In this document: positions 9,627 to 57,069 of the stretch, one piece after another
How the letters are laid out: the number at the start of each line of letters is the position of its first letter
How positions within the stretch are numbered: the first letter of the stretch is position 1
Assembly: GCA_003165595.1 (NCBI GenBank)
Contig: PLWQ01000025.1
Coordinates: forward strand, 107,832 to 171,831
DNA from: Fibrobacterota bacterium
GTDB lineage: Bacteria; Fibrobacterota; Chitinivibrionia; Chitinivibrionales; FEN-1185
Reading direction: 5' to 3'
Length of the DNA stretch: 64,000 bases
The notes under the pieces: generated by a model
Seen by the model: the letters and a program-made list of their open reading frames with translations, nothing else
Databases searched by the model: none
What the model was told of the DNA's origin: nothing
Made by a program: the position numbers and the translations under genes

Positions 9627-9833
9627 GGCGATCTTCTCTCCGCTGCTGAGGAAGCGTTGTGCCGCAAGATGCTTCCTTGATAAGATACTTGATGTCTTTG
9701 CAGGGAGGCTTGACGCGCCGCCGCGATCGGCTCTGTCTCTGGCGCCGGCGGGGCGATTTTTGTTCTGGCAATTGTTACAGATTTATTACATAATGTAATC
9801 ATGCGAGGATAAGTGGCAAAGGAGCTCTAGGGC

Positions 9834-10187: not shown

Positions 10188-10202
10188 ACCGGGGACGCGC
10201 GC

Positions 10203-10586
10203 ATGTCACTAAAACTTCCGTCGGGCATCATCTTTAGAAAAAACGACCCTGTGCGAGTGGCGTTCGGCGGGTCCGGTTTCGACGGCGTGGTTGCCTACGC
10301 CGGCGAGGGTTTCATGTCGCCGTTTGAAGACATGTTCTACCTGTTGGCCGCACCGCACCATGGCCTGGCCGATCTTTTCAGCGAAGATAACGAGATACGC
10401 GGAGCCTTTGTTCTGGTTGCCATACATTCCTCTGCCGTTCCCTGCTCCCGCTTGCCTGCGCAGGCAGTCTTGCAGTCAAGCAAGAACAACGATCCGTCCG
10501 TTGTTGCACGCGCGCTGGCCATTGTCGGCGGCCCGGAAGGAAAAGACGAGTATCTGATTTATCTGGACGTTTCCATGAAGAAATAG
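10203..10586 (+). CDS. hypothetical protein
   Basis: 127-aa ORF starting 15 nt after the STAS gene on the same strand. No recognisable motif. Confidence 0.45.
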   Translation: MSLKLPSGIIFRKNDPVRVAFGGSGFDGVVAYAGEGFMSPFEDMFYLLAAPHHGLADLFSEDNEIRGAFVLVAIHSSAVPCSRLPAQAVLQSSKNNDPSVVARALAIVGGPEGKDEYLIYLDVSMKK

Positions 10587-10789
10587 GTGGTTGCAATGTT
10601 TGCGCCGAAGGAATGAAAGGCAACACCATTTAAGAATTTAAGAGCCACGCCGCAAGAACGCCGCATTTATGCGGCGAAGAGCAGACAACAGAACTTCATT
10701 GTGCTCACATAGTTATTATCAAGCACGCTCCGCTACGGAATAATTGACCGATCCGCCCCGACACGACCGTGCAATTCGCCGCAATTGAA

Positions 10790-10815
10790 AAACCCCGCCC
10801 CAAGTGGCGGGGTTT
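10790..10815 (-). terminator. rho-independent terminator downstream of the MBL-fold gene
   Basis: 10-bp stem AAACCCCGCC / GGCGGGGTTT with a 6-nt loop. On the minus strand the hairpin runs into a T-tract (…GGCGGGGTTTTTCAA). Confidence 0.65.
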
Positions 10816-10918
10816 GCGCGGGCTGAGGCATTGAAAGACCCCGCAGCAGCTCCGGGGACCGCGATTACAACCGGATGTACACCCCAGTGAGCAGCCTGCA
10901 ATGCGCTCGCGGTGGGAT

Positions 10919-45773: not shown

Positions 45774-47252
45774 TTGGCTCTGATTGCGGAGTGTGGTGTG
45801 GATTCCATCGTTCTCGTAAATCCGCCCATGAGTCTAACCGAGCGATACGGCCGGCTGGCGGCTGCCGGGAGCACAATGCCCCCGCTGGCGCTTTGCTCGC
45901 TTGCCGCCGTGTGCCGCAACAACGGGTTTGCTGTTTCAATCATTGACGCGGCCTGCGGCGAGCTATCGCACGAACAGGTTGTCGACGCGCTGGTTTCCCG
46001 CAAGCCCCGGTATGTCGGCATAACTGCCATGACCTGCGGGATACACAGCGCGGCCAGAATTGCCAATTTGATAAAACGGAAACGTCCGGATATTCTGACC
46101 CTCATCGGCGGCCCCCATGTGACCGCGTTGCCGGCGGAAACGATGAGGATTTTTCCCGAGTTCGATGTGGGATGCATCGGAGAGGGGGAAGAAACGCTTG
46201 TCGATTATATGCGGGCCATGCAAGCCGGCTCTTCTGGTGACAATGTCTCTGGCCTTGTGCATAGAAAGGGCGGCGCAATTTGCCTGTCCGGCGCAAGGCC
46301 GTTTATTGAAGACTTGAATTCTCTTCCGTTCCCAGCCTGGGATCTCCTTGAAGGATTTCCCGACAGATATGTTCCTGCCGCAATTCGATGCAGGAGATTG
46401 CCTGCAAGCCACCTGGTCACGTCGCGCGGCTGTCCCATGAAATGCACGTTCTGCGATCGCTCGGTATTCGGGAACCGGTACCGGCTTTTCAGTGTTGAAT
46501 ATACGTTTGAAATGATAAAGACCTTGGTGAATACGTACAATGTGCGGGACATACTTTTCGAAGACGATAGTTTTACGCTTCACAAAGAAAGGGTGCTTGC
46601 TCTCTGCGAATTGATAGGAAAGAACAATCTGCGGTTCTCTTGGTCGTGCCTCGGACGCGTCGATTCAATAGATGCGACTCTCTTAAAGATCATGAGGCGG
46701 GCGGGTTGCTGGCAAATCGGATTCGGCATCGAAAGCGGAAACGCGGGGATTCTTGACAGTGTGCATAAAAGCATCGATCTCGATCGCATCCGTGAAGCGC
46801 TTGCGGTTACCAGGCGGGCTCGCATACTCACCAAGGGGTTCTTTGTGCTCGGGCTGCCGCACGAAACTCCCGACAGCATAAGGGAAACGATACGATTTGC
46901 CAAAACGGTGGCTCTCAACGACATCAGCGTGTCCTTCTGCACGCCATTTCCCGGCACTGTTCTGGGCGAACACGCGCGTGAGTCGGGCGATGTCGACCCG
47001 GACTGGAACAAGATGAATCTGATGAATGCCGTGTTTGTGCCCAAGGGCTTCACGAAAAAGCAACTGGAAGAATTTCATGCCGCGTTTTTTAGGCAGTTCT
47101 ATTTCCGGCCGGGGATCATTCTGGATTACGTGTTCAGGTGCATTCGGAATCCAGGGTTGCTGTGGCGAATCCTTTGGATTCTGCCGTCGTTCTTCCACCC
47201 GGCATTCCGTAAGGCTGCTCGCTCCCGACCTCTCGTATCCACGCACCGTTAA
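45774..47252 (+). CDS. B12-binding-domain radical SAM enzyme
   Basis: N-terminal cobalamin-binding-like Rossmann region ('YVGITAMTCGIHSAARIANLIKRKRPDILTLIGGPHVTALP'). 'SRGCPMKCTFCD' is a CX3CX2C cluster. TTG start in the track; GTG 45798 is an alternative. Confidence 0.8.
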   Translation: MALIAECGVDSIVLVNPPMSLTERYGRLAAAGSTMPPLALCSLAAVCRNNGFAVSIIDAACGELSHEQVVDALVSRKPRYVGITAMTCGIHSAARIANLIKRKRPDILTLIGGPHVTALPAETMRIFPEFDVGCIGEGEETLVDYMRAMQAGSSGDNVSGLVHRKGGAICLSGARPFIEDLNSLPFPAWDLLEGFPDRYVPAAIRCRRLPASHLVTSRGCPMKCTFCDRSVFGNRYRLFSVEYTFEMIKTLVNTYNVRDILFEDDSFTLHKERVLALCELIGKNNLRFSWSCLGRVDSIDATLLKIMRRAGCWQIGFGIESGNAGILDSVHKSIDLDRIREALAVTRRARILTKGFFVLGLPHETPDSIRETIRFAKTVALNDISVSFCTPFPGTVLGEHARESGDVDPDWNKMNLMNAVFVPKGFTKKQLEEFHAAFFRQFYFRPGIILDYVFRCIRNPGLLWRILWILPSFFHPAFRKAARSRPLVSTHR

Positions 47253-47692
47253 CGAGGCCGGGCCTCTTTTCCGTCGCTCGTTTCTGCTGCGCCGAATACC
47301 GCAGCTTTCATGGCTGCGTAGTTTATGGCGGCAGCCACGGCAGCCACAATAATATTCATGACAAAATAGTGGACATGGAGTTTCTGGACGCCGGTAAACA
47401 ACAGCGCATTTGCAATGGCCAGGATTGCCACCTGCAAAATGATGTAGCGTATGCCTTGTTTGACATGAGCCGTTGTGTAATTCTTGAAAACCAGATATTT
47501 GTTAATGGCATAGGAATACACGTAGGCCACTCCGCCCGCGATGTTGGAAGCGATCAGGTAGTTTACTTTAAATAATTCAACCAGGGCCAGCAACACGCCC
47601 CAGCACAGCACGGCGGTTGAGCAGCCGCCGATTCCGTATCGGACGATTTCCGGCATCGTTTTTTTGAAAGAAAAGTGTTTCGGCAACCGCAT
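47249..47692 (-). CDS. GtrA family membrane protein
   Basis: Four TM segments. 'RYGIGGCSTAVLCWGVLLALVE' and 'IAGGVAYVYSYAINKYLVFKN'. Lies 9 nt downstream of the GT2 gene. Confidence 0.8.
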   Translation of the reverse strand: MRLPKHFSFKKTMPEIVRYGIGGCSTAVLCWGVLLALVELFKVNYLIASNIAGGVAYVYSYAINKYLVFKNYTTAHVKQGIRYIILQVAILAIANALLFTGVQKLHVHYFVMNIIVAAVAAAINYAAMKAAVFGAAETSDGKEARPR

Positions 47693-47701
47693 TACAAGGC
47701 C

Positions 47702-48472
47702 CTATTTTAGGAGTCGGTTGAGAATGGAATATGCTACAAGTAGTTTGAGGTAATTGCAGTAGTGGACGGCAAAAGCAAGCGGGTGCGAACCTCGGTACTT
47801 TTTAGCGGCCAGTAGAGCGCGCGTTGCGGGAAAATTGCGAAAGGAACCGGTCATGGAGCCGCGGCTTACCCGGAAAGAGGCCAGGTATTCCTTGACAACA
47901 TACAGTTTGTGTTGCGATGCGATGCTTAACCATATCGCATACTCGGTCGTTGCATAGATGTCGAAGGGCCCCAGCTCCGACATAAGTGATGTCTTGAAGA
48001 AGACCGCCATGGCGCTTAAATAGCATTCAGTCAAGAGAAGATTGAAGCTGTGATGCCTAAGCAGAAAATTTTTGTACAAGGTAATCCATCGTCGTATTTC
48101 GTTGCCATCGTCATTGATAATCCCGCAATAGCCGGCAACCCAAGCGCAATCGACATGTTCCGAAAATGTCTTGAAGACCTGTTCAAATGCCCCGGGTTTG
48201 AAGCAGTCGTCCGCCGGCAGCATGACAATAATGTCGCCGGTGGCCATCCGACAACCTTTGTTGAAAGCGTCGCCCGTTCCTTTGTCCGGCTCGGAAATCC
48301 ATTTGAGATGCGGGTAGGATTTTAGAATCGAAACGGTGGCGTCAGTGGAGCCGCCATCAACCACGATATGTTCGTACGGTACATTGCCTTGAGCAAGAAC
48401 GCTTTCGATCGCCGTTCGAATATGTTTTTCCCCATTGAGGACAGGCGTAATTATGTTTATTTTATGTGTCAT
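47702..48472 (-). CDS. glycosyltransferase family 2
   Basis: 'INIITPVLNGEKHIRTAIESVLAQ', 'HIVVDGGSTDATVSIL', 'DIIVMLPADDCF'. Confidence 0.85.
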   Translation of the reverse strand: MTHKINIITPVLNGEKHIRTAIESVLAQGNVPYEHIVVDGGSTDATVSILKSYPHLKWISEPDKGTGDAFNKGCRMATGDIIVMLPADDCFKPGAFEQVFKTFSEHVDCAWVAGYCGIINDDGNEIRRWITLYKNFLLRHHSFNLLLTECYLSAMAVFFKTSLMSELGPFDIYATTEYAIWLSIASQHKLYVVKEYLASFRVSRGSMTGSFRNFPATRALLAAKKYRGSHPLAFAVHYCNYLKLLVAYSILNRLLK

Positions 48473-48621
48473 GGGATGATTGTAAATTAAGCTGTGCGCA
48501 CCGGAATACGAATCGGCGATTTTGCATTTGCGAAAAACCTCGCTTTACTCTGCCGGGCAGAAGCGCGTATCCTTGACTTTTCCAGATATAATTGTAGAAT
48601 ACGGGTGAAGGATTTTGGCAC

Positions 48622-49383
48622 ATGAAGAATCTGAGAGAAGCAATAGTAGTAGCTGCTGCAAGCGCTGGAGAGGGCCATATTCCGAGCGCCCTTTCCATTC
48701 TGGATATTTTATGGGTTCTGTACGACAAGGTTTTGAAGATAGATCCTTTGCATCCGACCAAACCGGATCGCGACAGGTTCGTACTCAGCAAGGGGCAGGG
48801 CGCTCTCGGGTTATATGTCGTTCTTGCCGCAAAAGGATTCTTCCAACACAAAGATCTGGACACCTTTGCGACTTTTAACAGCATCCTGGGCGGACATCCG
48901 GATCGGAACAAAATTCCCGGTGTTGAGGCTTCGACCGGTTCGCTGGGCCACGGCTTTCCGATTGCGGTCGGCATGGCTATGGGTTTGCGTGTGCAGCGGT
49001 CTTCCTCCCGCGTGTTTACGCTGATCGGTGACGGGGAGGCGAATGAAGGCAGCGTTTGGGAATCGGCGTTGCTGGCCGCGCACCATAAACTTTCAAATCT
49101 TTGCTGCATTATCGATTACAATCATTCGACGGATCGCGCGTTACTCGTTGGAAACATTGCCGCAAAGTTTGGCGCGTTTGATTGGGAATGCATTTCGGTA
49201 AACGGTCACGATCAAAACGAGTTGCTTGCGGCCTTGACCCGCGAGAGAACGAATCGACCTCTGGCGATTGTTGCCCGTACGGTAAAGGGATTCGGGTGCG
49301 CACGCATGGAAAACAATCCGGAATGGCATCACAAAGCGCCAACCCCAGAACAGCTACCGGCCCTTCTGGAGTCTCTTCGATGA
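48622..49383 (+). CDS. transketolase, N-terminal (ThDP pyrophosphate-binding) subunit
   Basis: 'GHIPSALSILDILWVLY', 'GSLGHGFPIAVGMA', 'IGDGEANEGSVWESALLAAHHKLSNLCCIIDYN'. Confidence 0.85.
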   Translation: MKNLREAIVVAAASAGEGHIPSALSILDILWVLYDKVLKIDPLHPTKPDRDRFVLSKGQGALGLYVVLAAKGFFQHKDLDTFATFNSILGGHPDRNKIPGVEASTGSLGHGFPIAVGMAMGLRVQRSSSRVFTLIGDGEANEGSVWESALLAAHHKLSNLCCIIDYNHSTDRALLVGNIAAKFGAFDWECISVNGHDQNELLAALTRERTNRPLAIVARTVKGFGCARMENNPEWHHKAPTPEQLPALLESLR

Positions 49384-50264
49384 ACATGCGCCAACAGATG
49401 GTATCAACGGTTGAAGGCGTTCTCCGGAGCGATGTCCGCACCATGCTTTTGCTGGGAGACATCGGTGTCTTTGGGTTCAGGAATGCGTTTGAGGCATTTC
49501 CCGAACGCGTGCTCAACATCGGCATTCTCGAACAGGCGACCATCGGCGTTGCGGCAGGGTTATCATTGTGCAACATGATTCCCATTGTTCATAGCATTGC
49601 TCCATTTCTCGTTGAACGCGCTTTCGAACAATTGAAAATTGACTTTGGCTATCAGAAGACCGGCGGCAACTTTATCAGCGTTGGAGCCTCGTACGATTAC
49701 GCAGCATTGGGGTGCACGCATCATTGTCCCGGGGATGTCGGCATTTTAAAAAATTGCCCGGGCATGGAAATTGTTGTTCCGGGCACCGCGTCGGAGTTCG
49801 ATACGCTGTTTCGACGGACGTACGCAAACGGATCGCCCACCTACTATCGCTTGAGCGAACGATCCAATGCAATGAGTTGCGATGTTTCCTTTGGAAAGGC
49901 CACGGTCATACGCAAAGGCGAGGGACTCACCGTTGTTGCGGTTGGACCCCTGCTCGATACGGTTCTTGAAGCCGGTAAGGATCTTGACATAACCATACTC
50001 TATTACACAACAGTAGCGCCCTTTGACGCCCAGACGCTCAAGGATAATGCGGGCTCATCTAAACTATTGTTGTGTGAACCATATTATAGCGGCGTATCGG
50101 CAGCCGACATACAAGCGGCGCTCTTTCCCGCTCCGGTCTCGATTGATTTCGCAGGAATTCCTTTCCGCTTTTTAACGCAATACGGCAGCTGCGCAGAGCA
50201 TGACGAGGCCCTCGGGCTAACGGCCGGCCGAATACGGTCACGCATGCAAAGGATGATGGCATGA
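49380..50264 (+). CDS. transketolase, C-terminal (pyrimidine-binding) subunit
   Basis: ATG 49380 overlaps the previous stop (ATGA). 'LLGDIGVFGF', 'NIGILEQATIGVAAGLSL', 'HCPGDVGILKNCPGMEIVVPG'. Confidence 0.85.
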   Translation: MNMRQQMVSTVEGVLRSDVRTMLLLGDIGVFGFRNAFEAFPERVLNIGILEQATIGVAAGLSLCNMIPIVHSIAPFLVERAFEQLKIDFGYQKTGGNFISVGASYDYAALGCTHHCPGDVGILKNCPGMEIVVPGTASEFDTLFRRTYANGSPTYYRLSERSNAMSCDVSFGKATVIRKGEGLTVVAVGPLLDTVLEAGKDLDITILYYTTVAPFDAQTLKDNAGSSKLLLCEPYYSGVSAADIQAALFPAPVSIDFAGIPFRFLTQYGSCAEHDEALGLTAGRIRSRMQRMMA

Positions 50265-51295
50265 ACCCGCTTCTCGACGCCATTGCCGCTGACGCCCGGG
50301 ACATTGTGTCAAAAATCGATTGTACCGGTTTACGCGGGAAGACCGTGCTCATAACCGGCGCCTCGGGACTAATCGGCGTCAATGTTCTTGCCTGTCTTCG
50401 CGAGTTGGCGCAGACGTTCCGAAACGAATGTTCCGTTGTGGCGACGATGCAAAGCGCGCCAGCCGATTTCATTGAGGCACTGTGCGATTTTCCCGCATGC
50501 ACCGTGATACGGGGAGATTTGACCGATCAATCGTTCTATGAATCCCTGCCTCGTGCGCATATCATCATCCATGCCGCAGGATACGGACAGCCCGCTTTGT
50601 TCACGCAGAATCCGGTTAAGACCCTGCAACTCAACACACAGTCGACATTCGCCCTGTTTTCGAAATTGCTCCCGTCCGGAAGATTCCTGTTTCTAAGCAC
50701 CAGCGAACTGTACAGTGGCTGCACGTCGCCACCGTTCGTCGAATCCCAAATCGGATCAACGGATGTTTCACATCCACGCGCCTGCTATATTGAGGGGAAA
50801 CGGTGCGGAGAGGCTATTGTCAATGCGTACCGGTCGCAAGGCGTAGCGGCAAAATCCGCGCGGCTGTGCCTGGCTTATGGTCCCGGAACTCGACCGGGAG
50901 ACAAACGAGTGCTTAACTCATTTATTCAAAGAGCGCTCGCGGGGCAAATTGACATGCTGGACAGCGGATCGGCCAGGCGAACCTATTGTTACGTAGCTGA
51001 CGCGGTTGAATTGCTTTGGAAAATTCTTCTGTTCGGAACCGATTGCGTCTACAACGTCGGGGGTGAATCCGACGTTACGATTTTGGAACTTGCCCGGAAA
51101 ATCGGCGGCTACCTGCACGTGCCGGTGAATGCGCCGCCAACGCCTCCGTTTTTGACCGATGCCCCACAGGACGTTCGCTTGGACATGTCCAAAACGAACC
51201 GGGAATTCGGAAAAACAGCCGGTGTGCCGTTCGATGTGGGCCTGGCCAGGACAATCGAATGGCAAAAAATATTGTACGGCGAGACTCTGCCATAA
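50261..51295 (+). CDS. NAD-dependent epimerase/dehydratase (UDP-glucuronate-decarboxylase-like extended SDR)
   Basis: ATGA overlap with the previous gene. 'VLITGASGLIGVNV' Rossmann motif. 'RACYIEGKRCGE' (YxxxK). 'KRVLNSFIQRALAG'. Confidence 0.8.
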   Translation: MNPLLDAIAADARDIVSKIDCTGLRGKTVLITGASGLIGVNVLACLRELAQTFRNECSVVATMQSAPADFIEALCDFPACTVIRGDLTDQSFYESLPRAHIIIHAAGYGQPALFTQNPVKTLQLNTQSTFALFSKLLPSGRFLFLSTSELYSGCTSPPFVESQIGSTDVSHPRACYIEGKRCGEAIVNAYRSQGVAAKSARLCLAYGPGTRPGDKRVLNSFIQRALAGQIDMLDSGSARRTYCYVADAVELLWKILLFGTDCVYNVGGESDVTILELARKIGGYLHVPVNAPPTPPFLTDAPQDVRLDMSKTNREFGKTAGVPFDVGLARTIEWQKILYGETLP

Positions 51296-51307
51296 GGGGA
51301 AGAGAAT

Positions 51308-52228
51308 ATGGGAATCACCATGGTTACCGGAGCGAACGGTCTCGTGGGTTATGCGTTGCGGCAAATGCACGAGCCGGATCTCGCCTATGTCTCTCGCGCC
51401 GACGCCGATCTTACGGATTTCAATCAGACGAAGGCGCTGTTCAACCGCGTTCAACCGGACCGCGTCATTCATTGCGCCGCCGAGGTGGGCGGCATCGGCG
51501 GGAATATGATTCATTCCGGCGAATACTTCCGGAATAATATCATGATTAATTTAAACGTTCTCGAATGCGCTCGGTTGGCGGGAGTAAAGAAGCTCATTTC
51601 CTTTATGTCAACATGCGTGTTCCCGGATTCATGCACGTATCCCCTTAATGAAAGGGACTTGCATAACGGACCGCCACATCCTTCAAATTTCGGTTATGCA
51701 TACGCAAAGCGGATGCTTGAAGTGCAGAGCAGTGCCTATAGAAAAGAATGGCAATGCGATTTTATCGTGGCGATTCCGACAAATATCTACGGCCCCAACG
51801 ACAATTGGAGCCTGCACGACGGTCACGTAATTCCCTCGCTTGTTCATCGGTGCTACCTTGCGAAGAAGAACGGCGAAGATCTTACGGTATGGGGCAGTGG
51901 AACTCCTCTGCGCGAATTCGTTTTTGCAAACGATATCGCTCAACTCGCTGCTTGGGCGCTCAACCGATACAGCGAGGATTCTCCTATAATCTTTACGTCG
52001 GGTATCGAAATTTCGATACGGGACGTGGTTGAAAATATCGCAGGCGCGCTTAACTTCAAAGGTTCGCTCATTTTTGATCCGTCAAAGCCCGACGGCCAGT
52101 TCCGCAAGCCCTCCGATCCGACCAAGCTTAAGAAATACCTTCCCGATTTTGAATTCACCGGCATTGAAAAGGGCATAACGAATACCGTTGAGTGGTTTGA
52201 AGCACATTACCCGAACGTGCGGATGTAA
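51308..52228 (+). CDS. fcl: GDP-L-fucose synthase-like 3,5-epimerase/4-reductase
   Basis: 'MVTGANGLVG', 'VIHCAAEVGGI', 'PSNFGYAYAKRMLEVQSSAY' (YxxxK), 'IPTNIYGPNDNW', 'VWGSGTPLREF', 'SKPDGQFRK'. Confidence 0.8.
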   Translation: MGITMVTGANGLVGYALRQMHEPDLAYVSRADADLTDFNQTKALFNRVQPDRVIHCAAEVGGIGGNMIHSGEYFRNNIMINLNVLECARLAGVKKLISFMSTCVFPDSCTYPLNERDLHNGPPHPSNFGYAYAKRMLEVQSSAYRKEWQCDFIVAIPTNIYGPNDNWSLHDGHVIPSLVHRCYLAKKNGEDLTVWGSGTPLREFVFANDIAQLAAWALNRYSEDSPIIFTSGIEISIRDVVENIAGALNFKGSLIFDPSKPDGQFRKPSDPTKLKKYLPDFEFTGIEKGITNTVEWFEAHYPNVRM

Positions 52229-52229
52229 A

Positions 52230-53195
52230 ATGCTGCCGAACGGGAAATTCGAAGACGGCGTGATCAAATCGCTAATCGCGGATGATTTTGAGGTACTTTT
52301 TAGGACCTCCTTGTCGGAATGTATACGAAGAAGAGTGTCCGAATTTGCATTAATGTATCGTGAAGTAACGGATGAGGAATACGAATCCTGTCTGCTGACC
52401 ATACTCCGGGCCATACACGACCCGGCTATTCCAAAAGCCGGTGCGCATCGCCAGGATAATTGGGAAAAGGGGTGGTTGGAAAATTTTCATGCTTGGGAGG
52501 CCACGGCAGGAGGCAAAGGTGCAAAAATTAATGCCATCCTTCCCCGTTATTTCGGCAAATACGGTTTCCTGAGAATCAACAGAACGCTTATCCGGCCCTT
52601 ATCCGATAACTTCGAATACTTTTCCCTGTGCCTCATTACCGATTGGCTCTTTGACGTTTATATGCGAAAAGCCGGATCGATTTACGAATTCGGCTGCGGA
52701 ACGGGATATCATCTGGTCCGCTTGAGAAACTACAATCCCACGGCGTCGCTTTTCGGTCTGGATTGGGCCCCGGCATCGCAAAAAATCATTTCGAGCCTGG
52801 CTTCGCAGGGATATGTGACGAATATGCAAGGACTGCGTTTCGACTATTTCAATCCGGATCAGAACATCCGTCTTGCGGCAGACTCAATTGTCTATACGGT
52901 AGCGTCGCTGGAGCAGTTGGGAAGAGATTTCAACCCGTTCCTGGCATATCTGTTGCGGAACAGACCGAGCCTCTGCGTGCATGTCGAGCCCATAGCGGAG
53001 TTACTTGACAAAAGCAACATCTTGGATTTTTTATCCATTGAATATTTCCAAAAACGTAATTATTTGACGGGATTTCTGGATCGATTGCATGCGCTAAAAG
53101 CGGAAGGGAAAATCGATATTGTCCTGGAACAACGCTCCTTTATCGGCAGTCTTCTCATAGACGGATACTCCATTGTTGTCTGGAAGCCTGTTTAA
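52230..53195 (+). CDS. class I SAM-dependent methyltransferase
   Basis: ATG 52230 lies 1 nt after the fcl stop. SAM motif I 'IYEFGCGTGYHLVRL'. 'LFGLDWA'. Confidence 0.75.
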   Translation: MLPNGKFEDGVIKSLIADDFEVLFRTSLSECIRRRVSEFALMYREVTDEEYESCLLTILRAIHDPAIPKAGAHRQDNWEKGWLENFHAWEATAGGKGAKINAILPRYFGKYGFLRINRTLIRPLSDNFEYFSLCLITDWLFDVYMRKAGSIYEFGCGTGYHLVRLRNYNPTASLFGLDWAPASQKIISSLASQGYVTNMQGLRFDYFNPDQNIRLAADSIVYTVASLEQLGRDFNPFLAYLLRNRPSLCVHVEPIAELLDKSNILDFLSIEYFQKRNYLTGFLDRLHALKAEGKIDIVLEQRSFIGSLLIDGYSIVVWKPV

Positions 53196-53321: not shown

Positions 53322-53981
53322 TTACGTTTTGGCAACCAGACATTGCGTGTCCCAAAGCTCAAGAATTTGCTCAGGTTTGTCGGCAAAAAAGTCGGCAAAC
53401 GCCTTTCTTACTCCCAAAAGGGTGCGGTAGTCGTGAGACAAGATGAACCCACCGCGAGTCATCCTTGGGTAGAAGAACCGAAGACAATCGAGCGTGCTCT
53501 TATAGATATCAACGTCAATATGCACCATCGAAAATGTACAATTCAGCACAGCATTTGCGGTTTCCGGGAAACACCCTTTATGGTAATAAACATTCTGGAA
53601 ACCCGAAAGAAACGCTTGAACCGCTTCGATGGAAGTATCGGCAAAATCTCCTTGACGATGTCTGTCAACGCGTTTGTCTACCATCGGCATGCCGGCAAAA
53701 GTATCGAAGAGATGCAGGTTCCTTTGCCCCTTAAACTCACAAATGATCCTTGCGCTTCCTCCTCTATAGACACCTACTTCCGCGAGGTCCCCCCTCAGCT
53801 TGCCTGATTGTTCTACCAATTTGTAGACGTTATGCATTTCCCGCATGGTCAAGGTCTTCCTGTTTCGAAGGCGGCGGTCTCCGAAACAAGCCAGAAACGC
53901 CTTGTCTTCACGTATAATGTGTTTGGAGACAATGGTATCAATTGATGTTCTCACCCTGTTTAGACATCTTCCAATGATCAT
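53322..53981 (-). CDS. TylF/MycF-family (macrocin-type) O-methyltransferase
   Basis: 'GDLAEVGVYRGGSARIICE', 'LFDTFAGMP', 'FSMVHIDVDIYKSTLDCLRFFYPRMTRGGFILSHDY'. Confidence 0.8.
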   Translation of the reverse strand: MIIGRCLNRVRTSIDTIVSKHIIREDKAFLACFGDRRLRNRKTLTMREMHNVYKLVEQSGKLRGDLAEVGVYRGGSARIICEFKGQRNLHLFDTFAGMPMVDKRVDRHRQGDFADTSIEAVQAFLSGFQNVYYHKGCFPETANAVLNCTFSMVHIDVDIYKSTLDCLRFFYPRMTRGGFILSHDYRTLLGVRKAFADFFADKPEQILELWDTQCLVAKT

Positions 53982-54115: not shown

Positions 54116-55732
54116 TCATTGTGTCGGCTTATTTGGAATGATTCGGTAAATCGAAAACGGCGGCACGGGAAATTCATTTGGGTGATTATAGTATTGCTGG
54201 TCCTTTTTTACCAAGACAAGCCTGAAGGCGCTTTCAAGTTTCGTTTGATAGGCATACGATCCTTCAATGCCCCGGTAATCGCAAAAGAACACCGCCTTGT
54301 TCTGCGTCAGCAGAAATGACAACTTATCAATAATTGTCGAGGTGGTATCATCCAGCCTTGACGGGGGAAAAAAGCAGGAATTTGAGTAATAATCAAGAGG
54401 AAAACACAGAAAGGCGTCGCACAGGACCACGGATTTCGGGGGAATGACCGATTCAATATCGTTCACAAGCCGATGTACCTGCGGCAGCCTGAAGTGGGCC
54501 GGCCTTGCACAGGGAACCGAACGGGTAATCTTCACAGCGAAAAAGGGAAGGAGAAAAACCGAAGCGAGTATCCACAATAGAACTGGACGATGTTGTATAG
54601 TCTCAACAAGAGTGTAGAGCCCGCAAACGAAAAGGAAAACCACTAACGGATAGACGGGCGCCAGGTAAATGTTATAGGTATAGGCAAAATCGAGGCACGG
54701 AATAAACCAGCAAACATAAAAGGAATATTCCAAGAGTAGGAATGGCGTCACCCACCACCGGACAAAGGCTGTTCTTCTTTGGTTCCACATTCCAATCGCT
54801 GCTATGGCAAGAAATGGCAGGGCCCACCACGCGGGGAACCCCTTGGGACTGTATATTATCGCCTGGGCCTTGCAGATAGCCACGAACGACGCCAAGGTAT
54901 TCCTGAAAAGATCGATATTCTTCCATTCGTAGGGCGGCTGCGCCGGAAGATACCAATGCCCGCTGCTGACATGATTCTGGATGAGAAACGGAGTGAAGAT
55001 AAGCATGGCGATTGCAATGCCGGCTATCCCGTTGGTGATGGCTGGCCTAACCCGCATATCCCTCAGATGGTGGCTATTAACGAAGAGTAAGATCATTGGC
55101 AAAAACAGAATTGCCTGAGGTATCTTCACCGTGGCTGTCAGGCATAAGAGACCAAAGGCCGCAAGCCAGTACACCTTGCGCTTCTTCTGGGAAGCGAGGA
55201 GTGCGAACAACGACGCAAGGGTCGTCAGGGCCGCGCAGGCAATGTCTCGCCGAAACGTCAACCGAAAGTTGATCACGGTCCCGTACGCCGCTATTGCCAG
55301 TACCGCGAGTATCCAGGCACTGCGCCGATCGCGGTCCTTAAAGAATACTCGCGTAGTGAAAAACAAACCGGTAATGATGCAAATGTCCCAAACAATCCGG
55401 GCAATCCATATTGCATTTTCACCGAACAGAGCAAGGAGCGGCGCCAGCAGCATTGCTATGCCTATTGATACAACGGAGACCTGTTGTCCTGCCGGATTCA
55501 AGACAAAAGGCGACAGGGTGTGTTTCATGTCGGGAAAATGCGACTTGAGAAGATCGTATACCGGATTGTCAATAATCATCTTCCCGTGGAGGAGCGCCTG
55601 CGCCGACCTGAGATAGATAACCATGTCGTCAACCATCGACGCATCGTAATTCAGGTAGGCGTTGACTGAGTAAACGCAGAGAAAGAGCAGGAGGAGGCCG
55701 AGGCAAATGAGGCGCGTCTTGTCTTTTACCAT
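54116..55732 (-). CDS. uncharacterised polytopic membrane protein (GT-C candidate)
   Basis: Start at MVKDKTRLICLG (ATG 55732). 'YDASMVDDMVIYLRSA' acidic loop after TM1. About 11 TM segments plus a soluble C-terminal domain. Confidence 0.6.
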   Translation of the reverse strand: MVKDKTRLICLGLLLLFLCVYSVNAYLNYDASMVDDMVIYLRSAQALLHGKMIIDNPVYDLLKSHFPDMKHTLSPFVLNPAGQQVSVVSIGIAMLLAPLLALFGENAIWIARIVWDICIITGLFFTTRVFFKDRDRRSAWILAVLAIAAYGTVINFRLTFRRDIACAALTTLASLFALLASQKKRKVYWLAAFGLLCLTATVKIPQAILFLPMILLFVNSHHLRDMRVRPAITNGIAGIAIAMLIFTPFLIQNHVSSGHWYLPAQPPYEWKNIDLFRNTLASFVAICKAQAIIYSPKGFPAWWALPFLAIAAIGMWNQRRTAFVRWWVTPFLLLEYSFYVCWFIPCLDFAYTYNIYLAPVYPLVVFLFVCGLYTLVETIQHRPVLLWILASVFLLPFFAVKITRSVPCARPAHFRLPQVHRLVNDIESVIPPKSVVLCDAFLCFPLDYYSNSCFFPPSRLDDTTSTIIDKLSFLLTQNKAVFFCDYRGIEGSYAYQTKLESAFRLVLVKKDQQYYNHPNEFPVPPFSIYRIIPNKPTQ

Positions 55733-55969
55733 GTCGCTTTGAGTTTCCTGGCGCTCACAATATGTATGCACCGTGAAGAATCTGGAGCCGGCGCGGAGCC
55801 GCGTGCCGCATCATTAAAATAAGTATATGACTCTTTTTACGCTGAGTCAATTACCCTGTCTTTATTATGGGCCCGTTGATTGTTTTGCTATTATGCGGCC
55901 GAAAAGATATTATTTAAGTTGGTAAACGACATGCCCTAAGAGCTCAAGAAGGGACCGCTCCCCAATACC

Positions 55970-56680
55970 ATGAATTCGCTCGTCCTTATTCCGGCATTCA
56001 ATGAGGAAAAAAACCTGCCTTCGGTTATTGCCGAGGTAAGGGCCAGCCTGCCGGATTTCGATATCGTTGTCGTAAACGACGGCTCCAGAGACCGAACCGA
56101 AGAACTTGCTCGTACCGCCGGAAGTGTGGTTATTTCTCATCCTGTCAATGTTGGATATGGGGCGGCGGTCCAGACGGGATTCAAATACGCCTGCAAAAAG
56201 GGCTATGCCGTTGTCGTGCTCATGGACGCCGATGGGCAGCACGATGCAAAGGATGCGCAACAGCTTGTAACTGTGCTTAAAGATCATTCATTGGACATGG
56301 TCATTGGCTCCAGGTTTGCGATAAAGACCGGCTATAAGACGACGTTCGCCAGGATAGTCGGCAGAAACCTTTTTTCGCTCATAACCTATTTGATAACCCA
56401 TAAGAGATTTCTGGACATCTCCTCGGGCTTTCGGGCGATCAATGGACGGGCGGTCGCATTTCTTTCAAGAAATTATCCTGTTGATTTTCCGGACGCCGAG
56501 GTACTCGTCATGATGCTCCTGAATGGATTCAAGATCGCAGAGGTCCCGGCGACTTTTAGATCGCGCACAACAGGCCAATCGATGTTTTCGCTGCCGAAGA
56601 AAATCTATTATCCGTTCAAAGGCCTGCTGGCAATCGTCATCGTCGTAATGCGGGAGATCTTCAAAGAGAAGGAGAAATAG
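55970..56680 (+). CDS. glycosyltransferase family 2, polyprenyl-phosphate glycosyltransferase type (GtrB/ArnC/DPM1-like)
   Basis: 'LVLIPAFNEEKNLPSVIAEV', 'VVVNDGSRDRTEELA', 'VVLMDADGQHD', and a C-terminal TM/amphipathic segment. Confidence 0.85.
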   Translation: MNSLVLIPAFNEEKNLPSVIAEVRASLPDFDIVVVNDGSRDRTEELARTAGSVVISHPVNVGYGAAVQTGFKYACKKGYAVVVLMDADGQHDAKDAQQLVTVLKDHSLDMVIGSRFAIKTGYKTTFARIVGRNLFSLITYLITHKRFLDISSGFRAINGRAVAFLSRNYPVDFPDAEVLVMMLLNGFKIAEVPATFRSRTTGQSMFSLPKKIYYPFKGLLAIVIVVMREIFKEKEK

Positions 56681-56681
56681 C

Positions 56682-57041
56682 ATGTCACTCAGGGGCCAAG
56701 CATTTGTCCTAATGATTTCCATTCTGGTAATTCTCTTTGTGCTTAATGCCCTGCGAAAAAGGAGAATTAACGAAGAATATTGCCTGTGGTGGATTTTTAT
56801 CATGATTGCAACGGATGTCCTCGTCTTGAACCAGCGCCTGCTTTCAAGAATCACGCATCTAATTGGAGCGCTCGTTCCCATATCAACGCTCACGCTTTTT
56901 GCGCTTATTCTCATGCTTGCGATTCTGATATATTTCTCGATGAAGATCTCCGTTCTCACAAACCAGGTAAGGGAACTCATTCAATTTGCTGCGCTGCAGA
57001 AAAAGGACATTGAGGAGTTGCGTCCAAAGGCTCACCTATAG
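56682..57041 (+). CDS. DUF2304-family small membrane protein
   Basis: AAGGAGAAA upstream of ATG 56682. Three TM segments. 'LRKRRINEEYCLWWIFIM'. Classic position directly after a GtrB-like GT2. Confidence 0.7.
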   Translation: MSLRGQAFVLMISILVILFVLNALRKRRINEEYCLWWIFIMIATDVLVLNQRLLSRITHLIGALVPISTLTLFALILMLAILIYFSMKISVLTNQVRELIQFAALQKKDIEELRPKAHL

Positions 57042-57069
57042 GCAACGTAGCGTCATACCCGGCCATCTT

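What the first reader, a model, noticed from the sequence alone, without database searches (positions are those of the whole stretch)
48622..53195. Five-gene operon (split transketolase, UXS-like SDR, FX-like epimerase/reductase, methyltransferase) predicting an unusual chain-extended or branched, methylated sugar
The genes are packed tightly: ATGA overlaps at 49380 and 50261, a 12-nt gap before fcl, and a 1-nt gap before the methyltransferase. ThDP-dependent two-carbon transfer onto a keto-sugar nucleotide has precedent in YerE (yersiniose biosynthesis). Split transketolase-like pairs do occur in polysaccharide loci, but as far as I know no chemistry has been assigned to them. A plausible scheme has four steps. 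The UXS-like SDR would generate a 4-keto intermediate. The transketolase pair would add a C2 unit. The FX-like enzyme would epimerise and reduce. The methyltransferase would cap the product. No GDP-mannose 4,6-dehydratase (gmd) is present in the window, so the fcl homologue may not be making GDP-fucose at all.
Basis: inference. Interest (0 to 1): 0.6.

Follow-up and report, generated by a model that had tools for sequence, protein, structure and literature searches.

The report
Transketolase-based sugar-tailoring gene cassette
The five genes are real and form a cassette conserved across many bacterial phyla, in which a remodelled two-piece transketolase, two sugar-nucleotide redox enzymes and a methyltransferase probably build an unknown, carbon-extended, methylated cell-surface sugar whose chemistry nobody has worked out.

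Summary
Five tightly packed + strand genes (48622-53195) encode a split transketolase (TK-N, TK-C), a UXS-like SDR (SDR-A), an FX-type GDP-fucose-synthase homologue (SDR-B) and a class I SAM methyltransferase (P5).

The new result is that this is a conserved, horizontally spread module. Of 65 evaluable relatives of TK-C:
- 64 have TK-N adjacent;
- 54 have SDR-A directly downstream;
- 37 have P5 and 23 have SDR-B;
- 19 have all five genes in the same order.

These relatives come from Patescibacteria, Omnitrophota, Verrucomicrobiota, Proteobacteria, Bacteroidota and others, always inside glycan loci.

The TK keeps every cofactor and donor-side residue. It has lost the canonical phosphate and acceptor residues (E. 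coli H461->G, D469->L, R520->E, nearly invariant). It is therefore not a pentose-phosphate enzyme.

The context in related loci is GDP-mannose chemistry, not UDP-GlcA: Gmd in 18 loci, E. coli-type Fcl in 21, GT10/GT11 in about 23, Ugd in about 1.

Best reading: ThDP-dependent C2 transfer onto a nucleotide-activated keto-sugar, followed by SDR redox or epimerisation and methylation. The order of steps, the nucleotide and the product are unresolved. Interest is moderately high: an uncharacterised, widespread pathway with a cultured carrier (Methylomonas sp. AM2-LC).

The parts
48573..48600 (+). sigma-70-like promoter candidate (TTGACT-16-TAGAAT) in the 149-bp divergent intergenic region upstream of TK-N
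   Evidence: It matches 10 of 12 consensus positions, but the number of such sites in the region is not above shuffles, so position is the only argument.
48622..49383 (+). TK-N: thiamine-diphosphate (PP) half of a split transketolase-like enzyme, 253 aa
   Evidence: PF00456, E=4e-39. 48% identical to the N chain of the C. hydrogenoformans split TK, 6yak. GDG/N185 and His26/His100/His261 equivalents are invariant in 79 relatives. The window has Gln59 where 76 of 79 have His (E. coli His66).
49380..50264 (+). TK-C: pyrimidine-binding plus C-terminal half, 294 aa, with a remodelled acceptor site
   Evidence: PF02779, E=2e-17. Only 28% identical to the functional split TK C chain. Glu411 and His473 equivalents are kept. 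H461->G in 82/82, D469->L in 80/82, R520->E in 80/82. Invariant motif LGCTHHCP.
50261..51295 (+). SDR-A: extended SDR of the UDP-xylose-synthase / hexuronate-decarboxylase type, 344 aa, with an N-terminal extra helix
   Evidence: Best sequence match is hUXS1, 100 bits. Best fold matches are 2b69 (UXS1), 8vr2 (Pcryo_0617 oxidoreductase/decarboxylase) and EvdS6, with 8v4g (CDP-glucitol synthase) among the top matches. [S/T]-S-E, Y-I-E-G-K-R and Arg are conserved in 65 relatives. N176->L in 65/65; the beta2 Asp->Ala in 52/65. AF2 pLDDT 88.6, helix at residues 3-18.
51308..52228 (+). SDR-B: FX/GMER-type GDP-4-keto-6-deoxyhexose 3,5-epimerase/4-reductase homologue, 306 aa
   Evidence: 330 bits and about 57% identity to human GDP-L-fucose synthase, 4e5y. 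S-T-C, Y-x-x-x-K and G-H are conserved in 26 orthologues. NCBIfam Fcl score is 230, below the cutoff of 500.
52230..53195 (+). P5: class I SAM-dependent methyltransferase with a conserved ~145-aa N-terminal substrate domain, 321 aa
   Evidence: Motif I YEFGCGTG. Only weak Pfam hits. AF2 pLDDT 91.5. Foldseek probability 1.0 to small-molecule O- and C-methyltransferases, but TM <= 0.48. 814 homologues, none with a Pfam family.
47702..48472 (-). divergently transcribed GT2 glycosyltransferase (context)
   Evidence: PF00535; weak TuaG/WcaE-like NCBIfam hits
47249..47692 (-). GtrA-family small membrane protein (context: polyprenyl-phosphate-sugar handling)
   Evidence: PF04138
45774..47252 (+). B12-binding radical SAM enzyme (context; possible C-methylase)
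   Evidence: PF02310 + PF04055; HpnJ/BchE/P-methylase-like. B12-rSAM genes lie next to the TK pair in 9 other loci.
53322..53981 (-). TylF-family methyltransferase, convergent with the cassette (context)
   Evidence: PF05711. Homologues (36-49% id) flank the cassette in 13 loci.
54116..58683 (.). PMT_2 GT-C (54116-55732, -), polyprenyl-phosphate-sugar-synthase-like GT2 (55970-56680, +), DUF2304 (56682-57041, +), second PMT_2 GT-C (57070-58683, +): probable delivery machinery
   Evidence: GT2b: PpgS, AglJ and ArnC-like hits
41104..42750 (-). third PMT_2 / ArnT-like GT-C glycosyltransferase (context)
   Evidence: PF13231; ArnT model 71 bits

Best explanation
The five genes are one copy of a widespread, laterally transferred sugar-nucleotide tailoring cassette.

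Its core is a neofunctionalised split transketolase. This enzyme still forms a ThDP-bound two-carbon (glycolaldehyde-type) carbanion, but it no longer binds sugar phosphates. I infer that it adds the C2 unit to the carbonyl of a nucleotide-activated keto-sugar, giving a C-branched (or otherwise carbon-extended) sugar.

SDR-A is a relative of NDP-hexuronate 4-oxidase/decarboxylases. It either supplies that keto-sugar or reduces the new side-chain ketone. The FX-like SDR-B epimerises and/or reduces the intermediate to an L-fucose-like configuration. P5 methylates the product.

In this window the product is then probably loaded on polyprenyl phosphate by a GT2, flipped with GtrA/DUF2304-type helpers, and transferred by PMT_2/ArnT-like GT-C enzymes to a periplasmic or surface acceptor.

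Shown: the gene structure, the family assignments, the conserved synteny, the active-site remodelling and the genomic context. Inferred: the acceptor, the donor, the nucleotide (GDP is favoured by context, UDP by SDR-A's relatives), the order of steps and the product.
For: 1. Synteny. TK-N is adjacent in 64/65 evaluable TK-C copies, SDR-A is directly downstream in 54/65, P5 occurs in 37/65, SDR-B in 23/65, and all five are in order in 19/65, across many phyla. The same order was seen independently in Falkowbacteria, Omnitrophota and an unnamed contig.
2. TK active site. Cofactor and donor residues are invariant, while H461->G, D469->L and R520->E. The functional split TK of C. hydrogenoformans keeps H/D/R. 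The N half is 48% identical to that enzyme and the C half only 28%.
3. Relatives at 42-43% identity share the loss of these residues. They sit in a Streptomyces clavuligerus biosynthetic cluster and in a Desulfobaculum plasmid glycan locus.
4. Neighbours are always glycan genes: DegT in 20 loci, Wzm/Wzt in 19, TylF in 13, GT10 in 12, GT11 in 11, Gmd in 18, Fcl in 21.
5. The gene after the TK pair is nearly always a reductase-type enzyme: SDR-A, a classical SDR in 4 loci, or SDR-B in 3. This is what a ketol-forming TK reaction requires.
6. Precedents exist: YerE; EvdS6/AviE2 with AviB1/B2; and the split TKs proposed for miharamycin and amipurimycin (PMC12247030, PMC10338323).
7. SDR-A's nearest structures are decarboxylases that release 4-keto-pentoses.
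8. P5 has a methyltransferase fold.
9. GT2, GtrA and three GT-C genes surround the cassette in the window.
Against: - No enzyme of this clade has been assayed, and no TK is known to accept a nucleotide sugar.
- SDR-B retains the complete 3,5-epimerase/4-reductase catalytic set. That set needs a ring 4-ketone with hydrogens at C3 and C5, and such a ketone would be consumed by 1,2-addition at C4.
- The nucleotide evidence conflicts. SDR-A resembles UDP-hexuronate decarboxylases, but Ugd is almost never nearby. SDR-B, Gmd, Fcl and GT10/GT11 indicate GDP.
- SDR-A has an NADP-type cofactor site and Asn176->Leu. Its second-best solved sequence relative is an NADPH reductase of an open-chain CDP-ketose (PMC10918830). 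Its role as keto-sugar generator is therefore uncertain.
- SDR-A has been lost in two CPR loci whose TK is closest to that of a full cassette.
- No keto-sugar source other than SDR-A is present in the 64-kb window.
Confidence: 0.45

Rival explanations
1. Chain extension rather than branching. SDR-A acts as a 4,6-dehydratase-like enzyme. The TK carbanion adds in a Stetter-type 1,4 fashion to the 4-keto-5,6-ene intermediate (or to another electrophile), so the ring 4-ketone is preserved. SDR-B can then carry out its normal 3,5-epimerisation and 4-reduction, giving a GDP-6-deoxy-L-galacto-type octose or heptose that P5 methylates.
For: It explains why SDR-B keeps the Ser/Cys/His/Tyr/Lys set and 57% identity to human FX. 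It explains why GT10/GT11 fucosyltransferase-family enzymes follow the cassette even without Gmd nearby. It fits the absence of gmd from the window. SDR-A's best NCBIfam hit is dTDP-glucose 4,6-dehydratase, and its cofactor site looks NADP-type, as in Gmd.
Against: No transketolase-family enzyme is known to perform a Stetter addition. SDR-A's closest sequence and structure relatives are decarboxylases, not dehydratases. The two CPR loci with an ordinary Gmd and no SDR-A cannot supply a free 5,6-ene. This reading is pure inference.
Confidence: 0.15
2. The TK does not touch a nucleotide sugar. It makes an unusual non-canonical ketose (or ketose phosphate, or a nucleotide-linked open-chain ketose). 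SDR-A reduces this to an alditol or modified sugar, as in CDP-6-D-glucitol or CDP-ribitol formation. SDR-B and P5 separately provide methylated L-fucose for the same glycan.
For: SDR-A's second-best solved sequence relative is the C. jejuni CDP-6-D-glucitol synthase. That enzyme is an NADPH reductase of an open-chain CDP-ketose with a unique N-terminal helix, and SDR-A has a confident N-terminal helix too (PMC10918830). Four loci have TK plus a classical ketoreductase, and two of them also have a small cytidylyltransferase-like gene and NUDIX. In Methylomonas, SDR-B-P5 lies 3.7 kb away from TK-SDR-A.
Against: The cassette itself never carries a kinase or nucleotidyltransferase. The phosphate-binding residues of TK are lost. 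SDR-B/P5 co-occur with the TK far more regularly than an independent fucose module would, and canonical Fcl is often present as well.
Confidence: 0.15
3. Ordinary metabolism. The pair is a housekeeping split transketolase of the pentose-phosphate pathway that happens to lie beside genes making plain GDP-L-fucose and UDP-xylose, with a methyltransferase acting on the finished glycan.
For: TK-N is 48% identical to a bona fide split TK and keeps all cofactor and donor residues. SDR-B is 57% identical to a true GDP-fucose synthase, and SDR-A is UXS-like. Annotators call them transketolase, GDP-L-fucose synthase and UDP-glucuronate decarboxylase.
Against: H461, D469 and R520 are essential for sugar-phosphate binding and stereocontrol in transketolases (established knowledge), and they are replaced in 80-82 of 82 relatives. 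The pair is always in glycan loci and fused in order with SDR-A. It is duplicated within one locus. It occurs in only about 231 of 185,579 species genomes (pattern-limited scan) with a patchy phyletic spread. Carriers include a methanotroph, which must have a canonical TK for the RuMP cycle (knowledge, not tested).
Confidence: 0.03
4. The TK pair generates an activated glycolyl or other acyl unit (dihydroxyethyl-ThDP oxidised or transferred) that decorates a sugar as an O- or N-acyl substituent rather than forming a C-C bond. This would resemble the split TK-like enzymes that feed glycolyl units into quinocarcin-type assembly lines.
For: The donor side is intact and the acceptor side is remodelled. 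DegT aminotransferases are frequent neighbours (20 loci) and could provide an amino-sugar acceptor. Related TKs occur in natural-product clusters.
Against: No lipoyl/E2, ACP or acyltransferase partner is conserved next to the pair. The conserved partner is an extended SDR. The precedent is recalled from memory and was not checked here.
Confidence: 0.07

Closest known systems
Eurekanate pathway of avilamycin/everninomicin: UXS-like decarboxylase AviE2/EvdS6 plus two-subunit ThDP enzyme AviB1/AviB2
   Same: It pairs a two-subunit ThDP enzyme with an SDR of the NDP-glucuronate 4-oxidase/decarboxylase class that can release a 4-keto-pentose. A C2 unit is proposed to be added at C4, and methylation occurs in the same pathway (PMC10338323). 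EvdS6 is among SDR-A's structural neighbours.
   Different: AviB1/B2 are pyruvate-dehydrogenase E1 alpha/beta homologues that transfer an acetyl-type unit. Here the enzyme is transketolase-type with intact glycolaldehyde-donor histidines. The context here is primary surface-glycan loci of diverse uncultured bacteria with GDP-mannose-pathway genes, not an actinomycete antibiotic cluster. SDR-A has Asn176->Leu and an NADP-like site.
YerE/YerF (yersiniose A) and YerE-like enzymes of LPS branched sugars
   Same: ThDP-dependent addition of an activated C2 (or longer) unit to the 4-keto group of a nucleotide-activated 6-deoxyhexose in an O-antigen locus, followed by ketoreduction (PMC12247030).
   Different: YerE is a single-chain enzyme of the decarboxylase (acetolactate-synthase-like) superfamily that uses pyruvate and a CDP-sugar. 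The window enzyme belongs to the transketolase superfamily, is split, and shows no match to that architecture beyond a sub-threshold 35-residue TPP_enzyme_C hit.
Split-gene transketolases proposed for the hydroxyacetyl branch of miharamycin/amipurimycin and 13 Streptomyces clusters
   Same: They are split TKs predicted to transfer a hydroxyacetyl unit onto a keto-sugar, and they are still uncharacterised in vitro (PMC12247030). A Streptomyces cluster TK at 42% identity shares the loss of H461/D469/R520.
   Different: Those are confined to streptomycete secondary metabolism and act on nucleoside-antibiotic intermediates. This clade (53-68% identical to the window TK-C among the genome-scan relatives) is fused in order to SDR-A and lies in cell-surface glycan loci of many phyla. 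I could not retrieve the miharamycin enzymes themselves for direct comparison.
Canonical (including split) transketolase, EC 2.2.1.1
   Same: The fold, ThDP/Mg binding motifs, activating Glu and donor-site histidines are shared. TK-N is 48% identical to the C. hydrogenoformans split TK.
   Different: The acceptor and phosphate-binding residues are replaced. The C half is only 28% identical. There is no pentose-phosphate context.
GDP-L-fucose synthase (FX/GMER/Fcl) with Gmd
   Same: SDR-B has 57% identity to human FX and all catalytic residues. Related loci often contain Gmd and fucosyltransferase-family GTs.
   Different: No gmd is in the window. In relatives, SDR-B coexists with a separate E. 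coli-type Fcl (46-55% identical to E. coli Fcl), and it is positioned after TK/SDR-A and before P5. This implies a substrate other than, or in addition to, GDP-4-keto-6-deoxy-mannose.

Membership tests
Transketolase (EC 2.2.1.1, pentose-phosphate enzyme) | ThDP/Mg2+ binding motif (GDG...N), activating Glu (E. coli E411) and catalytic His473 | tested here: met
   G154-D155-G156, N185, E411 and H473 equivalents are invariant or nearly so in 79-82 relatives, including the window
Transketolase (EC 2.2.1.1, pentose-phosphate enzyme) | Donor-site histidines (E. coli H26, H66, H100, H261) | tested here: met
   H26, H100 and H261 in 79/79; H66 in 76/79. The window itself has Gln59 at H66.
Transketolase (EC 2.2.1.1, pentose-phosphate enzyme) | Sugar-phosphate binding residues (R358, S385, H461, R520) and the acceptor C2-OH-binding D469 | tested here: not met
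   H461->G in 82/82, D469->L in 80/82, R520->E in 80/82, and the S385 segment is deleted. Only R358 is possibly kept (R4). The functional split TK 6yak keeps H, D and R.
Transketolase (EC 2.2.1.1, pentose-phosphate enzyme) | Catalysis of Xu5P + R5P <-> S7P + G3P; sole or central TK of the organism | not testable with these tools
   No assay is possible, and the whole genome of the source is not available through the tools.
YerE-type sugar-branching ThDP enzymes (decarboxylase superfamily) | Single chain with TPP_enzyme_N/M/C architecture | tested here: not met
   Pfam gives Transketolase_N / Transket_pyr. There is only a sub-threshold 35-residue TPP_enzyme_C hit.
NDP-hexuronate 4-oxidase/6-decarboxylase (UXS, ArnA, EvdS6, Pcryo_0617) - SDR-A | Extended SDR with [S/T]-S-E, Y-x-x-x-K and the conserved Arg of the G-x-x-x-R-x-(F/Y) loop | tested here: met
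   T/S 65/65, S 64/65, E 65/65, Y 64/65, K 65/65, R 65/65. The Arg is common to many extended SDRs, so it is weak evidence.
NDP-hexuronate 4-oxidase/6-decarboxylase (UXS, ArnA, EvdS6, Pcryo_0617) - SDR-A | Closest sequence and fold relatives are decarboxylases | tested here: met
   hUXS1 100 bits. Foldseek top hits are 2b69, 8vr2, 4gll and EvdS6. However, TM-scores of dehydratases, epimerases and a reductase are similar.
NDP-hexuronate 4-oxidase/6-decarboxylase (UXS, ArnA, EvdS6, Pcryo_0617) - SDR-A | NAD+ site with acidic residue at the end of beta2; Asn176 (hUXS1) / N179 (EvdS6) | tested here: not met
   Asp->Ala in 52/65; Asn->Leu in 65/65. In EvdS6 the N179A mutant loses the reductive half-reaction (PMC10338323).
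NDP-hexuronate 4-oxidase/6-decarboxylase (UXS, ArnA, EvdS6, Pcryo_0617) - SDR-A | Curated model score / supply of UDP-GlcA (Ugd) in context | tested here: not met
   NCBIfam PRK11908 scores 43 bits against a cutoff of 294. Ugd homologues occur in at most 3 of 81 related loci and not in the window.
GDP-L-fucose synthase (FX/GMER) - SDR-B | Catalytic Ser-x-Cys, Tyr-x-x-x-Lys and His of the epimerase/reductase | tested here: met
   STC, YAYAK and GH are aligned to human FX and conserved in 26 orthologues
GDP-L-fucose synthase (FX/GMER) - SDR-B | Curated equivalog score | tested here: not met
   NF047922 scores 230 bits against a cutoff of 500. The model is built on bacterial Fcl, and SDR-B is closer to eukaryotic FX (330 bits to 4e5y).
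GDP-L-fucose synthase (FX/GMER) - SDR-B | Partnered with GDP-mannose 4,6-dehydratase | tested here: not met
   No Gmd in the 64-kb window. Gmd lies within 10 kb in 18 of 81 related loci, usually with its own Fcl.
Class I SAM-dependent methyltransferase - P5 | Rossmann-like MT fold with motif I (E/D-x-G-x-G-x-G) | tested here: met
   YEFGCGTG is invariant. The AF2 model has pLDDT 91.5, with Foldseek probability 1.0 to many SAM MTs. Pfam hits are below gathering thresholds.

The most novel reading that the evidence does not exclude
This clade would be the first transketolase-family enzyme that works on a nucleotide-activated sugar. The TK-N/TK-C/SDR-A(/SDR-B/P5) cassette would make a previously undescribed GDP-linked, C2-branched or chain-extended, methylated L-fucose-like monosaccharide. 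That sugar would decorate the envelopes of Patescibacteria, Omnitrophota, Verrucomicrobiota, methanotrophs and others.
Probability: 0.4. Interest if true: 0.8.

Novelty: new variant of a known kind. Interest (0 to 1): 0.66.

Why it matters
ThDP-dependent branching of sugar nucleotides is known from only a handful of enzymes, and transketolase-type versions have never been shown to work. Here the TK-type version turns out to be a sharply defined, highly conserved clade:
- about 213 clusters at 50% identity;
- thousands of sequences;
- a diagnostic active-site signature (G/L/E at H461/D469/R520, motif LGCTHHCP);
- a fixed SDR partner.

The clade is spread through the surface-glycan loci of many poorly known phyla.

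Assigning its chemistry would add a new monosaccharide, or a family of them, to bacterial glycobiology. It would give a new carboligase scaffold for tertiary-alcohol or chain-extended sugar synthesis. It would also correct the routine mis-annotation of these genes as 'transketolase', 'UDP-glucuronate decarboxylase' and 'GDP-L-fucose synthase' in metabolic reconstructions. That matters most for CPR bacteria, where a false transketolase call affects inferences about the pentose-phosphate pathway.

A cultured carrier, Methylomonas sp. AM2-LC, makes the question directly testable.

Tried and rejected
- Six literature searches for a characterised transketolase in O-antigen, capsule or GDP-keto-sugar pathways found none; the search for the miharamycin split transketolases returned only the review already in hand. 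They returned only the review stating that split TKs are untested (PMC12247030) and one Actinoplanes EPS cluster in which the domains are merely listed (PMC13390465).
- One exact-protein look-up elsewhere in the window failed, and another showed nothing relevant. A Pfam scan of ten other window ORFs found no nucleotide-sugar precursor genes.
- A Gmd/SDR-A 'either-or' pattern was considered as proof that SDR-A replaces Gmd, and was rejected as proof. Gmd and SDR-A co-occur in about 15 loci. One of the three SDR-A-less loci (L045a) is a tandem duplicate with an identical TK-C. The other two are close relatives of a full cassette.
- The conserved Arg of SDR-A was considered as a decarboxylase marker and rejected, because the same R-x-(F/W/Y) motif occurs in Gmd and other extended SDRs.
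- P5's fold search gave no specific neighbour that would distinguish O- from C-methylation.
- The plasmid collection gave only distant relatives at <=43% identity.
- Intramolecular retro-acyloin epimerisation and alpha-ketol ring-expansion schemes were considered on paper and set aside as unsupported.

Full report
**Observation**

The region 48622-53195 holds five + strand ORFs of 253, 294, 344, 306 and 321 codons. ATGA overlaps lie at 49380 and 50261. A 12-nt spacer carrying GGGGAAGAG precedes the fourth gene, and a single base separates the fourth and fifth genes. A TTGACT-16-TAGAAT element sits at 48573-48600 in the 149-bp divergent intergenic region. Such sites are no more frequent here than in shuffled sequence.

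Pfam and NCBIfam give the following assignments:
- Transketolase_N for gene 1.
- Transket_pyr plus a weak Transketolase_C for gene 2.
- The NAD-dependent epimerase/dehydratase family for genes 3 and 4.
- Only sub-threshold methyltransferase hits for gene 5.

Exactly the same proteins occur on 14 public metagenome contigs. The long antisense ORFs in the region (48462-49109 and 50918-51514, - strand) have no support and are taken as spurious.

**The window context**

The cassette sits in a glycosylation island. Upstream lie:
- a divergent GT2 (47702-48472);
- GtrA (47249-47692);
- a B12-binding radical SAM enzyme (45774-47252);
- a DUF7657/DUF7654 protein;
- an ArnT-like PMT_2 GT-C (41104-42750).

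Downstream lie:
- a convergent TylF-type methyltransferase (53322-53981);
- a second PMT_2;
- a GT2 resembling polyprenyl-phosphate sugar synthases (55970-56680);
- DUF2304;
- a third PMT_2.

There is no Gmd, DegT, Ugd, ManC or RmlB homologue anywhere in the 64 kb. Ten other large ORFs of the window are unrelated housekeeping or envelope genes.

**The cassette is conserved**

TK-C has more than 4,700 homologues in the 90%-clustered protein collection. The top 120 are all 60-71% identical (apart from one 98%-identical near-copy) and 288-314 residues long, nearly all 291-298. In the 50%-clustered library, 213 representatives score E<=1e-30.

Three independent look-ups showed the same order: TK-N, TK-C, an SDR of about 340-350 aa, an SDR of about 306-340 aa, and a protein of about 311-316 aa with no Pfam family. 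These came from an unnamed contig, a Falkowbacteria MAG and an Omnitrophota MAG.

A scan of one genome per species found 231 relatives and returned 79 loci. Nearly all are MAGs, from Patescibacteria, Omnitrophota, Verrucomicrobiota, Alpha-, Beta-, Gamma- and Deltaproteobacteria, Bacteroidota, Acidobacteriota, Chloroflexota and others.

tblastn of the window proteins against these loci gave the following, for 65 TK-C copies with enough flanking DNA:

| Feature | Count |
|---|---|
| TK-N adjacent | 64 |
| SDR-A directly downstream | 54 |
| P5 present | 37 |
| SDR-B present | 23 |
| All five in the window's order | 19 |

Median identities to the window proteins are 60% (TK-N), 58% (TK-C), 52% (SDR-A), 68% (SDR-B) and 45% (P5).

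The fourth position is variable. It holds the FX-like SDR-B, or one of two other extended SDR types (9 and 7 loci), or nothing. Four loci have a classical short-chain reductase after TK-C, followed by a B12 radical SAM enzyme.

Two CPR loci have TK-N/TK-C followed directly by SDR-B, with Gmd-Fcl-Wzm-Wzt immediately upstream. Their TK-C is closest to that of a full cassette, so they are SDR-A-loss derivatives. A third apparent case, in L045, is a tandem duplication with an identical TK-C.

A cultured organism, Methylomonas sp. AM2-LC (CP157005.1), carries an Fcl-like gene, TK-N/TK-C/SDR-A and, 3.7 kb further on, SDR-B/P5. A Wzx flippase and a GT11 are also present.

**What surrounds the cassette elsewhere**

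Clustering of about 1,230 ORFs from the loci shows these recurrent neighbours:

| Neighbour | Loci |
|---|---|
| E. coli-type Fcl (46-55% id) | 21 |
| DegT aminotransferases | 20 |
| Wzm/Wzt O-antigen ABC transporters | 19 |
| True Gmd (TIGR01472, 533 bits; 47-61% to E. coli Gmd) | 18 |
| TylF methyltransferases | 13 |
| GT10 | 12 |
| GT11 | 11 |
| B12 radical SAM | 9 |
| Ugd | at most 3 |
| RmlB | 2 |
| ManC | 1 |

GT10 and GT11 are the fucosyltransferase families. They occur mostly without a Gmd within 10 kb, and in some loci directly after P5. The prevailing nucleotide-sugar background of this cassette is therefore the GDP-mannose/GDP-fucose branch, not UDP-glucuronate.

**The transketolase**

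TK-N is 48% identical to the N chain of the functional split transketolase of Carboxydothermus hydrogenoformans. TK-C is only 28% identical to its C chain.

I aligned 79-82 family members with E. coli TktA (fetched) and the C. hydrogenoformans chains. The cofactor motif, the activating Glu411, His473 and the donor-side His26, His66, His100 and His261 are conserved. The window has Gln at His66, a minority state found in 3 of 79.

By contrast, His461 is Gly in 82/82, Asp469 is Leu in 80/82 and Arg520 is Glu in 80/82. The Ser385 segment is deleted. The C. hydrogenoformans enzyme keeps His, Asp and Arg. From established transketolase structure-function work (my knowledge), these are the residues that hold the substrate phosphate and read the acceptor's C2 hydroxyl. 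A new invariant motif, LGCTHHCP, occupies this site.

More distant relatives (42-43% identity) have also lost these residues. One sits in a Streptomyces clavuligerus megaplasmid biosynthetic cluster and another in a Desulfobaculum plasmid glycan locus.

I conclude with high confidence that the pair is a neofunctionalised carboligase. It still makes a TK-type (dihydroxyethyl) ThDP intermediate but binds a non-canonical acceptor. That the acceptor is a nucleotide-linked keto-sugar is an inference from synteny and precedent.

**SDR-A**

Its best solved sequence relative is human UDP-xylose synthase (100 bits). Next come the C. jejuni CDP-6-D-glucitol synthase (71 bits), the Pcryo_0617 oxidoreductase/decarboxylase, ArnA and EvdS6. 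The AlphaFold model (pLDDT 88.6) finds the same set, with decarboxylases on top but with similar TM-scores for dehydratases, epimerases and the reductase.

In 65 orthologues the [S/T]-S-E triad, Y-I-E-G-K-R and the loop Arg are conserved. hUXS1 Asn176 is always Leu, and the NAD-specifying Asp at the end of beta2 is Ala in 52. In EvdS6, the N179A mutant gives almost only the 4-keto product (PMC10338323). This fits an enzyme that releases a keto-sugar.

On the other hand, the NADP-like site and the confident N-terminal helix resemble the CDP-glucitol synthase, a plain NADPH ketoreductase (PMC10918830). Both roles, keto-sugar generator or ketoreductase of the TK product, remain open.

**SDR-B**

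It is about 57% identical to human FX over its whole length. The Ser-x-Cys, Tyr-x-x-x-Lys and His residues of the 3,5-epimerase/4-reductase are intact, both in the window and in 26 orthologues. It is only 34-38% identical to the E. coli-type Fcl paralogues that accompany Gmd in the related loci. Several loci have both. This argues that SDR-B handles a different GDP-4-keto-6-deoxyhexose-like substrate. That requirement is the main difficulty for a simple C4-branching scheme, and it is the main argument for the chain-extension rival.

**P5**

P5 has 814 homologues, none with a Pfam family. Motif I and a long conserved N-terminal region are invariant. The model (pLDDT 91.5) is a class I SAM methyltransferase. 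Its closest folds are small-molecule O- and C-methyltransferases at TM<=0.48. Whether it methylates O or C, and whether it acts on the nucleotide sugar or on the glycan, is unknown.

**Mechanism**

My best account has three stages:
1. A keto-sugar nucleotide is made, either by SDR-A from a hexuronate or by Gmd where present.
2. It receives a C2 unit from the remodelled TK.
3. SDR steps (SDR-A and/or SDR-B, or their replacements) reduce or epimerise the product, and P5 methylates it.

In this window, GT2/GtrA/GT-C enzymes then deliver it outside the cytoplasmic membrane.

| Reading | Probability |
|---|---|
| General scheme above | about 0.45 |
| A variant that preserves the ring ketone (Stetter-type extension) | 0.15 |
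| Ketose/alditol route that does not involve a C1-linked nucleotide sugar | 0.15 |
| Acyl (glycolyl) transfer | 0.07 |
| Housekeeping TK plus plain GDP-fucose/UDP-xylose | 0.03 |

**Comparison with the known**

The closest systems are:
- the eurekanate pathway (UXS-like EvdS6/AviE2 plus E1-type AviB1/B2);
- YerE/YerF;
- the still-untested split transketolases of miharamycin and amipurimycin (PMC10338323, PMC12247030).

The cassette works like these. It is not a member of the YerE or E1 families, because the architecture test was not met. It also fails the substrate-site test for canonical transketolase. I rate it a new variant of a known kind.

**Verdict**

It is weaker in its specific chemistry, because the UDP-GlcA entry and the step order are not supported. 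Interest 0.66.

Noticed in passing
window 45774-47252 (+); also L009 5532-7199, L031, L033, L042, L049, L055, L063, L065: A B12-binding radical SAM enzyme lies next to the cassette in the window, and similar enzymes (22-34% identical) lie next to the TK pair in 9 other loci. In four loci the order is TK-N/TK-C/classical SDR/.../B12-rSAM. It may be a C-methylase of the same sugar.
   Followed up: partly
window 41104-42750 (-), 54116-55732 (-), 57070-58683 (+), with GT2 55970-56680, DUF2304 56682-57041, GtrA 47249-47692: Three PMT_2/ArnT-like GT-C glycosyltransferases, two GT2s and two small membrane helpers are packed around the cassette. This looks like a polyprenyl-phosphate-sugar glycosylation island. 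The arrangement is specific to this organism and is not part of the conserved cassette.
   Followed up: partly
window 48796-48798 (TK-N residue 59): The window's TK-N has Gln where 76 of 79 relatives and all canonical transketolases have the donor-site His (E. coli His66). Only 3 family members share this state.
   Followed up: partly
window 53322-53981 (-): A TylF-family methyltransferase is convergent with the cassette. Homologues (36-49% identical) flank the cassette in 13 other loci, so the product may carry more than one methyl group.
   Followed up: partly
window 43665-45770 (+): A large protein with DUF7657 and DUF7654 and no NCBIfam match sits between a GT-C and the radical SAM gene. 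Its function is unknown.
   Followed up: no
L045 (OY762209.1 Syntrophorhabdaceae chromosome) 9201-10882 and 13621-15302: There are two TK-N/TK-C pairs 3.6 kb apart with identical TK-C sequences. The first is followed by SDR-B only and the second by the full SDR-A/SDR-B/P5 set. This is a recent tandem duplication or an assembly repeat.
   Followed up: partly
L033 11692-12857 (-), L063 11813-12984 (-): In the TK + classical-SDR variant, a small CTP_transf_like nucleotidyltransferase and a NUDIX hydrolase sit between the reductase and the radical SAM gene. This hints at a CDP- or ADP-activated open-chain product in that variant.
   Followed up: no
L094 (Methylomonas sp. AM2-LC, CP157005.1 228560-249507): A cultured methanotroph carries the cassette split into TK-N/TK-C/SDR-A and SDR-B/P5 sub-modules. 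Two extra methyltransferases, a Wzx flippase, a GT11 and flanking integrase/IS66 genes are present, which suggests a mobile O-antigen island.
   Followed up: partly
plasmid hits H20/H21 (Rhodococcus fascians D188 pFiD188, about 79.4-80.3 kb): TK-C has 36% identity to a 'transketolase' gene on the R. fascians virulence plasmid. The position may correspond to the fas cytokinin locus, but the annotation was not fetched. This would be another non-metabolic use of a split TK-like enzyme.
   Followed up: no
window 39585-40016 (-) and 40375-40878 (-): Two small proteins with the prepilin-type N-terminal methylation motif (N_methyl) lie just upstream of the glycosylation island. They are possible glycosylation targets, and they hint at a Verrucomicrobiota/Planctomycetota-like host.
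   Followed up: no
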